This document shows positions 15,606 to 19,130 of a stretch of 64,000 nt of DNA, piece after piece; within the stretch, counting starts at the first letter, position 1; each line of letters opens with the position of its first letter. Source of the stretch: Candidatus Omnitrophota bacterium (GTDB lineage: Bacteria; Omnitrophota; Gorgyraeia; Gygaellales; Profunditerraquicolaceae); contig JALOQK010000001.1 in assembly GCA_025453395.1 (NCBI GenBank), positions 166,313 through 230,312 of the forward strand, in the 5' to 3' direction. The position numbers were made by a program, and so were the translations under genes. Under the pieces are notes generated by a model that saw only the letters and a list, made by a program, of their open reading frames with translations, did not search any database and had not been told where the DNA came from.

Positions 15606-18600
15606 CTAACACTTAGAATAACCGCAATGGCACTTCACGCATCCTTCTTCATGCCGAAGCGTACCTCCGCAATCCGGACAAACCCCCACAATATCAGCGC
15701 CATTATCACTGACAGACGAAGGTTGATCATCATGCGAATGTTTCATGGCAATCTCAGCCATCTCTTGAACTAGTTTTTGAGTAGGGACATTTACCAGCCG
15801 CTTTTCAATAACCCGGGCAATAGCATCAGCGCAGGAAAAGATTCTTTGCCCCTTTTCCCACGAAGGGCTGGGGCAGCGGATATTGCGCAACTGCTCAATA
15901 ATAGATTTTACCTCTACGCCGGCTCTGAAACTCAAAGAAACAAGCCTGCCAATGGCTTCTAATTGCGAACCTGCGCAGCCGCCGGCTTTGCCCATCTGGG
16001 TAAAAAGCTCAAAAGGCCTGGCCTCCTGATCCACGTTAATGGTCACATACAAATTGCCGCAGCCGGTAGCAACTTTAGTGGTAGTGCCACTTATAACTTC
16101 GGGGCGCGGACGAGGGCTTATTTTGCCTGACTCCACAATATTAACCACCATAGACTCTTGAACTTTTTCTTTATCTTTCCTGGCAATATTTAAAACCTGC
16201 TCCTGACGGCTGTTATCGCGGTAAATAGTCAACCCCTTGCAATTTAATTCATAGGCCATCAAATAGGCCTTTCTCACATCTTCAATAGTAGCATCATTTG
16301 GAAAGTTTATCGTCTTAGAAGTAGCATTATGAACGTATTTCTGAAAGGCAGCCTGCATACGCACGTGCCACTCAGGAGTTATGTCATGGGCAGTGACAAA
16401 CACGCGCTTCACATCAGCAGGGACTTCTTCAATATCTTTTAAAGAAGCATGCTCCGCTATTTTCTCCATCAATTCCCGGCTGTAAAACCCTCTTTCCTTG
16501 GCAACTTCTTCAAATAAAGGCTCTACCTCCACAAGTTTATCATTATCCATAACATTTCTATAATAAGAAATCGCGAACAACGGTTCAATCCCAGAAGAAC
16601 AGGGACCGGCAATAATGCTTATCGTCCCGGTGGGAGCGATAGTAGTCAAGGTGGCATTGCGCAAATAAGATCCGCCATCTTTTTTATCATAGATACTTCC
16701 CTTGAATGCCGGGAAAACGCCTCTGTCTTTGGCAAGCTCCTGGGATTTCTTGGTTGCTTCATCAAGAATAAACGCCATGAGTTTCTCAGCTAATTCCACC
16801 GCTTCTTCAGAATTATAAGGAATGCCTAAACGGATTAAAAGGCTGGCCCAGCCCATCACCCCTAAGCCGATTTTACGGGTGCGCTTAGTAGCTCTTTCTA
16901 TATCGGGAAGCGGGAATTTATTTACATCTATAATATTATCCAAGAAATGCACTGCGGTTTGAGTAACCCTTCCTAATCTCTCCCAGTCTATTTCGATCTT
17001 CGCGCCATTTTTCTTATACATAAGGTCCAAATTAATGGAGCCCAAATCACAGCTTTCATAGGGCAAAAGAGGCTGTTCGCCGCAATCAAGTGAAATAAAT
17101 CCATTTGAAATAAAGGTTAGGGTCTGCGGTTCTGTTAAATCGTATACTGTTTCTTCCCCGCATGAAGTTACGCTTTCAACCGTTTCCTCAAAACTATCTT
17201 TAAAATAATCCTTGCTATAAAACTTTGCTGTCTTTTGAGAATGCCTTTCGCACATAAAACCGACTATTTCTAAAAATTTCATAACGCTTTCTCTGGATAT
17301 TTCTAATTCAAAACAAACACCGTCAGTCTTATAATTTTTTTCCTCGCCAGATTTTGTTAAGTAAGCGAAACAAGTTCTTTCCCCCCTATTTCTATCGTAT
17401 ATTCGTGATTTTATCCCCAAATTCAACAAGATAATTTGAACTCCTTTAAGAAGTTTATCGGATTTCGCAGTAAGCCGGACATATGAAGAATGCTCTTCTT
17501 TATAGTTAACCGTCCCGTCGGCAGTAAATAACCCCTGCAGAAAACCAATAATTGCTTCCTTAGGCGCCGTATAAATTGATTCCGGCACTTCTTTGCCTTG
17601 GGCCTTACAAACTTTTACTCCTAACTGCTTAAAGAAATCTACGAAATATTTACTATGATACGAAAGATGATACACATTATTTTCTCTTAATACCTCCTTG
17701 ATATCCTGCCCATAGAAACCATTGAGAATAGGTTTCATATATTCGAGAACGGTTTTATCATCCTGGCTGAATGTGAAACCTGCGCGGCAATTTTTATCGC
17801 CATCCCTTAGCCAACCATCGCCGACAAGCAGCCCTAACACCTGCCCAAGCTGCTTGGACCATTTTTCGGGCAAATTTAATTTATAGCCTCTGCCATTTTC
17901 TCCTTTGAATTCATTACAAACTTCAAAAGGCAGGCTATTGTCGGAATTAAAAGGTATGCCCTGCGGCTGGATAATAACCTTATCTTTATGCAAAGTTAAA
18001 TCTTGAACCTTTACCCAGCCATGCGTAGTCATAAGCTGATGATCCGCGGTGGCAACTAATTCAAACCCGGATTTTGTCGTAACTTTGAAAACTGGCTTAA
18101 CGCCTGTTTTAAAAGCCGCGGAAATCACATTTTGCGAAAGAGCCAATTTTGCCTCTGTGGCTACAGCTGCGTGCTCTTTGCTTCCATAAAGAATTTCTCC
18201 TACCCTATCGTCGGTAAATATAGCTATGCCGCCGGAACTGTAATTCTTGGCCAAATCCCTCATCCTGACTAACCCTTTTTCAGTAGAAATAAAAGTATCC
18301 CCTGTGACGCATGGGTTGGTGCTTTGAATTTGGCCTAATTTCGGAGTGGGATTGCCTTCGTTCATGCGATCAATAAAAATTATGCCGGGTTCTCCATTTT
18401 TATGCGCCTGCTTAACAATCAGATCAAAGACCTCTCTTGCGGAAATCTTCTTTACCAGCTTATCATTATGCGGCTCGCGCACCTCATACTCCTGCCCGCT
18501 TTGAAGCTTATCCATAAACTCGTCGGTAATAGCCACCGAAATATTAAAATTGGTGATCTGGTGGTTATCTTCTTTGCAGGTAATAAATTCTAAGATATCC

Positions 18601-19130
18601 GGATGGTCAACCCTTAAAATACCCATGTTCGCGCCGCGGCGTGTGCCGCCCTGCTTGACTGCTTCGGTAGCTGAATCATAAACTTTCATAAAAGATACCG
18701 GACCCGATGCCACTCCTCCAGTAGTTTTAACCACAGCATTCTTAGCGCGCAATTTAGAGAAAGAAAATCCTGTGCCGCCGCCTGATTTATGGATCATCGC
18801 GGTTGCCTTAAGCGTTTCAAAAATAGATTCCATAGAATCTTCTATCGGCAAGGTAAAGCAGGCGCTTAATTGCCCCAGTTCCCTGCCAGCGTTCATAAGG
18901 CAGGGGGAATTGGGCATGAACTCCAATGAAGCCATCACCTGATAAAAGTTTTTTTGTGTTAAAGCGACGTCTTCATTGCTTGCGCCGTAAAACCTGTCCG
19001 CGGCGGCAATAGCAGAACAGACCCGCTCAAACATCTCTTGCGGGCTCTCAATAACTTTACCGTTTGCATCCTTCTTAAGGTACCTTCTTTCTAATACTTT
19101 CAGGGCATTATCGGAAAGCCGTGTGTTCAT
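15606..19130 (-). CDS. nrdJ: Class II (adenosylcobalamin-dependent) ribonucleotide reductase, intein-containing precursor
   Basis: The exteins carry class II RNR blocks: the STNP|...|[19 protein letters not shown] active-site region and a C-terminal Cys-rich tail [24 protein letters not shown]. The 1174 aa length is explained by a ~409 aa insertion. Confidence 0.85.
   Translation of the reverse strand: [1174 protein letters not shown]
17085..18311 (-). mobile_element. Intein with a LAGLIDADG homing endonuclease, inserted before the catalytic Cys of the NPCGE motif of NrdJ (aa 274-682)
   Basis: N-terminal splice block [13 protein letters not shown], block B [21 protein letters not shown] motifs [10 protein letters not shown] and [15 protein letters not shown], and C-terminal block [10 protein letters not shown] followed by extein Cys. 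The terminal residues are Leu-Asp rather than the canonical His-Asn. Confidence 0.75.

What the first reader, a model, noticed from the sequence alone, without database searches (positions are those of the whole stretch)
15606..19130. nrdJ carries a LAGLIDADG intein inserted at the radical cysteine, with non-canonical Leu-Asp C-terminal splice residues
The class II RNR active-site motif N-P-C-G-E is split: ...QIQSTNP | CVTGDTF...[10 protein letters not shown] | [19 protein letters not shown]. The insert (aa 274-682, nt 17085-18311) has intein blocks A (CVTGDT), B ([11 protein letters not shown]), two LAGLIDADG motifs ([23 protein letters not shown]) and block G ([10 protein letters not shown]). 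The +1 extein residue is the essential thiyl-radical Cys, so splicing is obligatory for function. Yet the terminal dipeptide is L-D, not H-N. Inteins without the penultimate His are known, but terminal Asp is rare; this is either an unusual splicing chemistry or a decaying intein.
Basis: partly seen in the sequence, partly recalled or inferred. Interest (0 to 1): 0.7.

Follow-up and report, generated by a model that had tools for sequence, protein, structure and literature searches.

The report
Asp-ended homing intein in nrdJ
The B12-dependent ribonucleotide reductase gene of this Omnitrophota genome is interrupted, just before its radical cysteine, by an intact self-splicing intein ending in Leu-Asp instead of His-Asn; this unusual ending has a published precedent and is shared by a conserved clade in at least 85 other species, so it is a healthy member of a rare known kind, not a decaying element.

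Summary
ORF 15606-19130 (-) encodes a 1174-aa NrdJ with a 409-aa insert (aa 274-682, nt 17085-18311) between STNP and CGEQ. The insert is a HINT plus LAGLIDADG intein by Pfam, NCBIfam, an AlphaFold model (pLDDT 93) and Foldseek. 118 of the 119 closest orthologues read straight through STNPCGEQ, which fixes the boundaries. The +1 Cys aligns with Cys322 of Thermotoga maritima NrdJ.

The Leu-Asp end is real and is not decay. A pattern scan of 185,579 species genomes found about 85 Asp-ended inteins at this same site, in Bacteria and Archaea. All 71 full-length ones keep Cys1, block B Thr and His, and block F Asp. They share a co-varying C-terminal module: block F:13 is Leu/Tyr/Phe and never His, followed by Ser, then Leu/Phe/Met, then Asp. 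Asn- and Gln-ended alleles at the site mostly keep the two His residues. Against its closest relative (77.5% identity) the intein shows dN/dS of 0.13-0.18 and fewer synonymous changes than the host gene.

Splicing with a C-terminal Asp was reported in 2004 for the Carboxydothermus RNR intein, and this insertion point is described as the commonest in RNRs. Verdict: a new member of a known kind, of modest interest.

The parts
15606..19130 (-). nrdJ precursor ORF, 1174 aa. It encodes a class II (B12-dependent) ribonucleotide reductase with RNR all-alpha, barrel and TSCPD domains and a C-terminal Cys-rich tail, plus the intein.
   Evidence: NF006417 1183.6 bits; identical to P0096, named by NCBI as a 'Candidatus Omnitrophica bacterium' protein
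18312..19130 (-). N-extein, aa 1-273, ending ...GQIQSTNP
17085..18311 (-). Intein, 409 aa (precursor aa 274-682): a HINT splicing domain with an inserted LAGLIDADG homing-endonuclease domain
   Evidence: AlphaFold pLDDT 93 and pTM 0.92; best Foldseek matches are the TliVMA, PhoVMA, PI-PfuI, PI-PkoII and PI-SceI inteins
18288..18311 (-). Block A, CVTGDTFI; Cys1 is the first nucleophile
   Evidence: Cys1 in 71 of 71 Asp-ended relatives
18039..18050 (-). Block B core, T-A-D-H (intein Thr88 and His91)
   Evidence: Thr 71/71, His 71/71
17808..17837 (-). LAGLIDADG motif 1, [10 protein letters not shown]; the catalytic Asp is intein D165
   Evidence: Asp in 66/71
17508..17546 (-). LAGLIDADG motif 2, [13 protein letters not shown]; the catalytic Asp is intein D265
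   Evidence: Asp in 63/71
17085..17147 (-). Blocks F and G, [21 protein letters not shown]. F:4 is Asp391, F:13 is Leu398 (normally His), G:5 is Ser407, G:6 is Leu408 (normally His), and G:7 is Asp409 (normally Asn).
17082..17084 (-). +1 Cys codon (precursor aa 683). It is the second splicing nucleophile and, after splicing, the Cys of N-P-C-G-E that aligns with T. maritima NrdJ Cys322.
15606..17084 (-). C-extein, aa 683-1174 plus the stop codon, starting [12 protein letters not shown]...
19180..19209 (-). Promoter-like site, TTGACA-18 nt-TATAAT with an upstream TG, 12 of 12 consensus matches, 50 nt upstream of the ATG
19215..19261 (.). Two NrdR-box-like palindromes (19215-19230 and 19246-19261), 31 bp apart. 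They are the only two matches in the window.
   Evidence: the NrdR-box consensus is from my own knowledge
15541..15578 (-). Terminator-like hairpin with a 17-bp stem followed by a T run, 28 nt after the nrdJ stop codon

Best explanation
This is a functional class 1 intein with an intact LAGLIDADG homing endonuclease. It is inserted in nrdJ directly N-terminal to the thiyl-radical cysteine, and it belongs to a widespread, conserved clade of alleles at this site that end in Asp instead of Asn.

Inferred mechanism:
1. Cys1 of the intein converts the Pro-Cys peptide bond into a thioester, helped by block B Thr88 and His91 and by block F Asp391.
2. The +1 Cys, the future radical Cys, takes over the N-extein to give a branched thioester.
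3. The C-terminal Asp409 frees the intein. The most likely route is attack of its side-chain carboxyl on its own peptide carbonyl, giving a succinic anhydride that then hydrolyses. This happens in a pocket where the two His residues that normally activate Asn (F:13 and G:6) are replaced by Leu, with Ser at G:5.
4. An S-to-N shift restores N-P-C-G-E and yields active NrdJ.

Shown here: the anatomy, the boundaries, conservation, covariation, purifying selection, and signs of horizontal spread. Inferred: that the precursor splices, and the chemistry of step 3.
For: Intein identity and fold.

Boundaries and intein-free alleles: 118 of the 119 closest orthologues have uninterrupted STNPCGEQ.

The Asp end is conserved, not accidental. 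A scan for NG-x4-D|CGEQP gave 92 hits in 185,579 species genomes. About 85 are real inteins in NrdJ and 7 are chance hits, against about 8 expected by chance (my own estimate). Hosts span Omnitrophota, Planctomycetia, Methanoperedens, DPANN and Asgard archaea, Patescibacteria, Gammaproteobacteria, Chloroflexota, and cultured thermophilic Firmicutes.

In the 71 full-length Asp-ended inteins (70 relatives plus the query), Cys1, block B Thr and His, and F:4 Asp are invariant.

Covariation: among 89 Asp-ended sequences F:13 is L55/Y18/F10/K4 and never His, G:6 is L73/F8/M3/R3/Y2, and G:5 is Ser in 81. Among 89 Asn- or Gln-ended alleles F:13 is His in 59 and G:6 is His in 44. Comparison with nested Asn-ended alleles shows the switch is confined to the last 12 residues.

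Purifying selection against L030: dN/dS is 0.18, 0.14 and 0.13 for the three intein segments. Synonymous difference is 0.30-0.60 in the intein against 0.80 in both exteins, so the intein was shared more recently than the host genes diverged. Intein GC3 is 36.9% against 45-49% in the exteins.

The gene looks expressed and regulated, with a consensus promoter and tandem NrdR-like boxes.

Precedent: inteins ending in Asp or Gln are described as able to cyclise and cleave the C-terminal junction (PMC4031507, citing Amitai et al. 2004).
Against: No splicing experiment exists for this protein or for any member of the clade found here. The one experimentally tested Asp-ended intein (Chy RIR1) could not be retrieved, so its kinship to this clade is untested. 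By my recollection of the Amitai 2004 abstract, an Asp-to-Ala mutant still cleaved at the C-terminus. That argues that simple Asp cyclisation may not be the whole story for step 3. dS is saturated for most pairs, so dN/dS is quantitative only against L030. The AlphaFold coordinates could not be inspected, so contacts between Leu398, Ser407, Leu408 and Asp409 are assumed from block positions, not measured.
Confidence: 0.85

Rival explanations
1. The intein is decaying and no longer splices. The Asn-to-Asp change (a single A-to-G transition) killed splicing, nrdJ is effectively a pseudogene, and another RNR supplies dNTPs.
For: The canonical His-Asn is missing and the NCBIfam intein C-terminal model did not match. 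Only 64 kb of the genome was available, so a second RNR cannot be excluded.
Against: The 1174-codon frame is open. The terminal Asp and the whole catalytic set are invariant in 71 full-length inteins (70 relatives plus the query) down to about 25-30% identity. pN is far below pS in all three intein segments and in both exteins. Both LAGLIDADG catalytic Asp residues are retained. The promoter and NrdR-like boxes are intact. A dead intein would not keep a co-adapted Ser-Leu-Asp plus F:13 Leu module across Bacteria and Archaea.
Confidence: 0.04
2. The boundary is misplaced. The true intein ends at a canonical Asn (for example FISN), or the insert is a fixed non-intein domain of this NrdJ lineage.
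For: An Asn lies six residues upstream of the Asp ([10 protein letters not shown]).
Against: Intein-free orthologues resume exactly at CGEQ. Ending at Asn403 would put Gly at +1, which is not a nucleophile, and leave GFISLD inside the N-P-C-G-E motif. In all relatives that Asn-Gly pair is the conserved block G 'NG', five residues before the terminal residue, whatever the terminal residue is. The insert is absent from 118 of 119 close orthologues, so it is not a lineage-fixed domain.
Confidence: 0.01
3. The element cleaves but does not ligate. The Asp-ended intein releases two NrdJ fragments that reassemble non-covalently, as reported for a phage nrdA split by a mobile element (PMC3045599, title and abstract seen).
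For: By my recollection, mutants of the Chy Asp-ended intein gave N- and C-terminal cleavage instead of splicing, which shows that this active site is easily diverted to cleavage.
Against: Cys1, block B Thr and His, F:4 Asp and the +1 Cys, the residues needed for the thioester and branched intermediates, are all invariant. The break would fall inside the five-residue active-site motif, at the radical Cys itself. The wild-type Chy intein was reported to splice (Amitai et al. 2004, title cited; detail from memory).
Confidence: 0.03
4. Sequencing or assembly error turned AAT (Asn) into GAT (Asp).
For: The window comes from a metagenome-assembled genome.
Against: The same Asp, with the same co-varying Leu, Ser and Leu residues, recurs in about 85 independent assemblies, including three cultured isolates.
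Confidence: 0.005

Closest known systems
Chy RIR1 intein of Carboxydothermus hydrogenoformans (Amitai, Dassa and Pietrokovski 2004, J Biol Chem 279:3121)
   Same: It is an intein in a ribonucleotide reductase large subunit that ends in Asp instead of Asn. It is reported to splice with the native Asp, and it is cited in reviews as the example of Asp-ended inteins. By my recollection of the abstract, changing the Asp to Asn abolished splicing. That fits the co-adapted, His-free C-terminal module found here.
   Different: Its sequence and insertion site could not be checked. The paper is not held. C. hydrogenoformans was not among the 92 hits of the NG-x4-D|CGEQP scan, nor among the relatives of a 345-aa Asp-ended intein. 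By my recollection it is 345 aa, against 409 aa here. Membership of the same allele family is therefore plausible but untested.
Gln-ended inteins (CIV RNR intein; Pyrococcus abyssi and Methanoculleus Pol II inteins)
   Same: They show non-Asn C-terminal chemistry in otherwise standard class 1 inteins. The CIV intein also sits in an RNR and prefers its native residue over Asn (PMC4031507). Gln-ended alleles occur at this very NrdJ site.
   Different: The Gln-ended alleles at this site mostly keep His at F:13 (21 of 28). The Asp-ended ones never do (0 of 89). Gln would give a glutarimide, whereas Asp would give an anhydride.
Contiguous inteins directly N-terminal to the thiyl-radical Cys of class I and II RNRs
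   Same: The insertion point is the same. Dassa et al. [quoted passage not shown] Asn-ended relatives at the site share up to 64.6% identity with Asp-ended ones.
   Different: Those alleles end in His-Asn, Ser-Asn, His-Gln and similar dipeptides, not Leu-Asp.
Solved endonuclease-containing inteins TliVMA and PhoVMA (7qsu, 7qss, 7qst), PI-PfuI (1dq3, an RNR intein) and PI-PkoII (2cw7)
   Same: They are the closest folds to the model: Foldseek E-values of 5e-22 to 5e-17 and TM-scores of 0.56-0.64 normalised to the query. The architecture, a HINT domain with an inserted LAGLIDADG domain, is the same.
   Different: Sequence identity is only 14-19%.
NrdJ-1 split intein from ocean metagenomes (Dassa et al. 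2009)
   Same: The host enzyme and the active-site loop are the same.
   Different: It is inserted one residue further C-terminal, it is split, and it is associated with a free-standing endonuclease.

Membership tests
Class 1 intein (HINT protein-splicing domain) | Cys or Ser as the first intein residue | tested here: met
   Cys274 (CVTGDT); Cys in 71/71 Asp-ended relatives
Class 1 intein (HINT protein-splicing domain) | Block B Thr-x-x-His | tested here: met
   T-A-D-H at intein residues 88-91; Thr and His in 71/71
Class 1 intein (HINT protein-splicing domain) | Cys, Ser or Thr as the first C-extein residue | tested here: met
   Cys683 (CGEQ)
Class 1 intein (HINT protein-splicing domain) | C-terminal Asn, usually preceded by His | tested here: not met
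   The end is Leu408-Asp409. The same end occurs in about 85 genomes. Reviews accept Asp and Gln as variants of class 1 (PMC4031507).
Class 1 intein (HINT protein-splicing domain) | In-frame insert at a conserved site, absent from orthologues | tested here: met
   118 of 119 closest orthologues have uninterrupted STNPCGEQ
Class 1 intein (HINT protein-splicing domain) | HINT fold | tested here: met
   Model pLDDT 93; Foldseek matches to solved inteins, including the Ssp and Npu DnaB mini-inteins; Pfam PF14890 50.2 bits
Class 1 intein (HINT protein-splicing domain) | Autocatalytic excision with ligation of the exteins | not testable with these tools
   Needs expression plus SDS-PAGE or mass spectrometry
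LAGLIDADG homing endonuclease (two-motif, monomeric) | Two LAGLIDADG motifs, each with a catalytic acidic residue | tested here: met
   [10 protein letters not shown] (D165) and [13 protein letters not shown] (D265); PF14528 79.3 bits; conservation
LAGLIDADG homing endonuclease (two-motif, monomeric) | Endonuclease fold | tested here: met
   Foldseek matches to I-DmoI, I-Tsp061I and I-SceI over about 210-230 columns
LAGLIDADG homing endonuclease (two-motif, monomeric) | Cleavage of the intein-free allele, and homing | not testable with these tools
   Only indirect evidence: synonymous divergence is lower in the intein (0.30-0.60) than in the exteins (0.80) against L030; the distribution across phyla is patchy
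Asp-ended inteins of the Chy RIR1 type | C-terminal Asp in a ribonucleotide reductase intein | tested here: met
Asp-ended inteins of the Chy RIR1 type | Sequence homology to, and the same insertion site as, Chy RIR1 | tested here: inconclusive
   The Chy sequence was not obtainable. C. hydrogenoformans was absent from the pattern hits. A single difference in NG or CGEQP would be enough to miss it.
Class 3 intein | Cys at block F:4 as the first nucleophile, with no need for Cys1 | tested here: not met
   F:4 is Asp (VYDL) and Cys1 is present. Class-3-like VYCFTE inteins do occur at this site in viral contigs.
NrdJ (class II, B12-dependent RNR) | Match to the curated family model above its cut-off | tested here: met
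   NF006417 1183.6 bits against 961; TIGR02504 733 bits against 400
NrdJ (class II, B12-dependent RNR) | Active-site Asn-x-Cys-x-Glu and the redox Cys pair, once the intein is removed | tested here: met
   The spliced sequence aligns with T. maritima NrdJ N320, C322, E324, C333 and C134 (LSACF). The residue roles are from my own knowledge.

The most novel reading that the evidence does not exclude
The Asp-ended NrdJ inteins would be a distinct mechanistic subclass, not a sporadic variant. Their C-terminal cleavage module would be His-free and co-adapted (F:13 Leu/Tyr/Phe, G:5 Ser, G:6 Leu/Phe/Met, G:7 Asp), would work through an Asp anhydride or another route that does not use imide formation, and could not be interconverted with the Asn module by a single mutation. 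Carboxyl chemistry depends on protonation, and both nucleophiles are Cys residues at the radical site. Maturation of NrdJ could therefore be conditional on pH or redox state in these mostly anaerobic hosts.
Probability: 0.3. Interest if true: 0.55.

Novelty: new member of a known kind. Interest (0 to 1): 0.3.

Why it matters
For genome annotation, the protein is deposited as a 'TSCPD domain-containing protein'. It should read as an intein-containing NrdJ whose mature product is 765 aa.

For intein biology, the single gene is ordinary. The survey it prompted is useful, because the one Asp-ended intein studied biochemically has many natural relatives. About 85 species carry Asp-ended inteins at the RNR radical-Cys site. 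Their signature is strict and includes loss of both His residues that normally drive Asn cyclisation. The closest Asn-ended alleles differ only in the last 12 residues. This gives a ready-made set of natural variants for working out how an intein cleaves its C-terminal junction with Asp, which was left open in 2004. It also offers possible Asp-dependent, pH-sensitive cleavage modules for protein engineering.

Tried and rejected
1. Retrieving Amitai et al. 2004 failed because the paper is not held. Four further literature searches found only citing papers. The details of the Chy intein (345 aa, mutant behaviour) therefore rest on my memory of the abstract.

2. Finding the Chy sequence failed. 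C. hydrogenoformans is not among the 92 pattern hits. The third protein search, seeded with a 345-aa Asp-ended intein from a Tepidanaerobacteraceae genome (L088), returned no Carboxydothermus protein.

3. DNA for metagenomic relatives was of little use. The P0070 sample has no file. The P0002 contig (L001) is broken by many frame disruptions and is unfit for dN/dS. The window's own protein is not in the contig index. The genome loci were used instead.

4. dN/dS against relatives more distant than L030 is saturated at synonymous sites, so only pN far below pS can be stated for them.

5. No Rfam family, including the cobalamin riboswitch, matches anywhere in the window.

6. A scan for further residues that co-vary with the Asp end gave mostly phylogenetic signal. 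Only F:13, G:5, G:6 and G:7 differ from the nested Asn-ended alleles.

7. The alternative boundary at Asn403 and the sequencing-error idea were considered and rejected (see the rival explanations).

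
Full report
**Observation**

The window holds one long ORF on the minus strand, 15606-19130, of 1174 aa. Its product matches the curated NrdJ model NF006417 at 1183.6 bits (cut-off 961). It carries the RNR all-alpha, barrel and TSCPD domains.

Between ...GQIQSTNP and [12 protein letters not shown]... 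lies a 409-aa insert, aa 274-682, nt 17085-18311. On its own the insert matches:
- Pfam Intein_splicing, 50.2 bits;
- Pfam LAGLIDADG_3, 79.3 bits;
- the NCBIfam intein N-terminal region, 42.6 bits;
- the intein parts of several intein-containing protein models.

By sequence, its nearest solved relatives are the DnaB mini-inteins and the endonuclease-containing VMA and PI-PkoII inteins. An AlphaFold model built from 57 sequences is confident (pLDDT 93, pTM 0.92). Its best Foldseek matches in the PDB are the TliVMA, PhoVMA, PI-PfuI, PI-PkoII and PI-SceI inteins, followed by the free LAGLIDADG enzymes and the mini-inteins.

**Boundaries and site**

A search with the conceptually spliced extein recovered the window's own protein. 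It is P0096, 100% identical, labelled by NCBI 'MAG: TSCPD domain-containing protein [Candidatus Omnitrophica bacterium]'. The search also returned 119 orthologues at 75-80% identity. Of these, 118 are 758-778 aa long and read ...[23 protein letters not shown]... without interruption.

So the insert is optional, its limits are Cys274 and Asp682, and intein-free alleles are the rule in this phylum. Aligned to T. maritima NrdJ (1xjk), the +1 Cys is Cys322 and the next Cys is Cys333. By my knowledge of that enzyme these are the thiyl-radical Cys and one of the redox pair.

The only nearby Asn (FISN|G) cannot be the junction. It would leave Gly at +1 and six extra residues inside the N-P-C-G-E motif.

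**Is the Leu-Asp end decay or design?**

Among the first 95 homologues of the intein, 39 showed a C-terminal junction at this same site. Their ends were varied: SN, HN, RN, AN, HQ, RQ, AQ, and in five cases LD or RD.

I then scanned one genome for each of 185,579 species for DNA encoding N-G-x4-D|C-G-E-Q-P. The scan gave 92 hits against about 8 expected by chance (my own estimate). Seven are chance matches. About 85 are Asp-ended inteins sitting between xTNP and CGEQ of NrdJ. The hosts include:
- Omnitrophota (11 genomes) and Planctomycetia;
- Methanoperedens, Woese-, Pace-, Nano- and Aenigmarchaeota, Bathyarchaeota, and two complete Heimdallarchaeum genomes;
- Patescibacteria, Gammaproteobacteria, Chloroflexota, Acidobacteriota and Caldisericota;
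- the cultured thermophiles Fervidicola ferrireducens, Thermosediminibacter litoriperuensis and Thermovorax subterraneus.

Sixty-nine of the inteins from the scan are full length, 331-468 aa, and the closest to the query is L030 at 77.5% identity. Adding the query and P0002 gives the 71 full-length Asp-ended sequences compared below. In all 71, Cys1, the block B Thr and His, and the block F Asp are invariant. The two LAGLIDADG catalytic Asp residues are kept in 66 and 63.

**A co-adapted C-terminal module**

Across 89 Asp-ended sequences:
- block F:13 is Leu (55), Tyr (18), Phe (10) or Lys (4), and never His;
- the penultimate residue G:6 is Leu, Phe, Met or Tyr in 86;
- G:5 is Ser in 81.

Across 89 Asn- or Gln-ended alleles at the same site, F:13 is His in 59 and G:6 is His in 44.

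In a neighbour-joining tree built without the last 30 alignment columns, most Asp-ended inteins fall in one large clade. Two Ser-Asn-ended alleles nest inside it, and two shorter Asp-ended groups branch separately. One nested allele, P0003 from an Omnitrophica genome, is 64.6% identical to the Asp-ended L054. It is only 51.7% identical to its best Asn-ended relative.

A column-by-column comparison shows that the nested alleles differ from the Asp-ended ones only at F:13, G:5, G:6 and G:7. The switch between Asn and Asp chemistry is therefore a compact change of several residues in the last 12 positions. It has happened within close lineages, by co-evolution or by exchange of the 3' end.

**Selection and mobility**

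Against L030, dN/dS is 0.18 for the N-terminal splicing part, 0.14 for the endonuclease and 0.13 for the C-terminal splicing part. For eight more distant relatives pN is far below pS, but synonymous sites are saturated.

Synonymous difference against L030 is 0.30-0.60 inside the intein and 0.80 in both exteins. The two inteins therefore share a more recent ancestor than their host genes, as expected for homing or gene conversion. Three further observations point the same way:
- the intein has lower GC3 than the exteins (36.9% against 45-49%);
- it is absent from nearly all close orthologues;
- it is scattered across both prokaryotic domains.

Viral contigs carry 30 Asn-ended and 17 Gln-ended inteins at this site but no Asp-ended one.

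**Surroundings**

Fifty nucleotides upstream of the ATG there is a perfect TTGACA-18-TATAAT promoter with an upstream TG. It is preceded by two NrdR-box-like palindromes 31 bp apart, the only two matches in the window. A hairpin with a 17-bp stem and a T run follows the stop codon. No Rfam family matches in the window. The gene has the look of an expressed, NrdR-controlled nrd gene.

**Mechanism**

Steps 1, 2 and 4 should be standard for a class 1 intein, because every residue they need is present and conserved.

For step 3 the most likely route is attack of the Asp409 carboxyl on its own peptide carbonyl. This would give a succinic anhydride that then hydrolyses. It is the Asp analogue of Asn succinimide formation, which reviews accept for Asp- and Gln-ended inteins (PMC4031507).

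Replacement of both His residues by hydrophobic ones is what one would expect if the carboxyl must sit in a low-polarity pocket. This is inference. By my recollection of the Amitai 2004 abstract, the Asp-to-Ala mutant of the Chy intein still cleaved and the Asp-to-Asn mutant did not splice. So the chemistry is not settled. The covariation found here offers an explanation for why Asn alone does not work.

**Comparison with what is known**

An Asp-ended RNR intein that splices was published in 2004 (Chy RIR1). [quoted passage not shown]

I could not obtain the Chy sequence, so I could not test whether it belongs to the clade described here. Either way, the window's intein is a new member of a known kind. 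The size, breadth and strict signature of the Asp-ended clade are, to my knowledge, not described. I could not search the subscription literature, so I do not claim they are new.

**Verdict**

The finding is of modest interest (0.3). Its main value is as an entry point to a natural series for studying Asp-dependent C-terminal cleavage.

Noticed in passing
window 19180-19261: A perfect sigma-70-type promoter (TTGACA-18-TATAAT with an upstream TG) is preceded by two NrdR-box-like palindromes 31 bp apart (19215-19230 and 19246-19261). These are the only two matches to the box pattern in the 64-kb window.
   Followed up: partly
window 15541-15578: A hairpin with a 17-bp stem and T runs on both strands lies 28 nt after the nrdJ stop codon. 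It falls inside the 5' end of the longest mnmG ORF (13683-15596), so the real mnmG start is probably further downstream than the first ATG.
   Followed up: no
L074, L006, L063, L056, L052, L065, L061 (11 residues after the Asp-ended intein): A second, canonical His-Asn-ended intein of about 352-357 aa sits at the next active-site Cys (equivalent to T. maritima Cys333): [14 protein letters not shown]...VHN|CNLGSINL. In these genomes two inteins of different end chemistry flank an 11-residue extein segment.
   Followed up: partly
L094-L140 (viral contigs): Viral contigs carry 30 Asn-ended and 17 Gln-ended inteins at the same NP|CGEQ site and no Asp-ended one. Many have Cys at block F:4 (VYCFTE), the hallmark of class 3 inteins.
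   Followed up: partly
P0003 versus L054 and L041: A Ser-Asn-ended intein from an Omnitrophica genome is 64.6% identical to an Asp-ended one outside the last 30 alignment columns. It differs from the Asp-ended inteins at F:13, G:5, G:6 and G:7, so the terminal module has switched within a close lineage.
   Followed up: partly
P0210: An NrdJ 79% identical to the window's extein is 1170 aa long but has an uninterrupted NPCGE motif. It therefore carries an intein at a different site.
   Followed up: no
L001 (ERZ1286166 contig_3290): The RNR gene holding the Asp-ended intein P0002 is cut into many small ORFs. Nearby thioredoxin-like ORFs also show weak intein matches. This looks like an indel-rich assembly rather than biology.
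   Followed up: no
window 17085-18311: The intein is poorer in G+C than its host gene (39.4% against 45-46%; GC3 36.9% against 45-49%). The lowest values are in its C-terminal third.
   Followed up: yes
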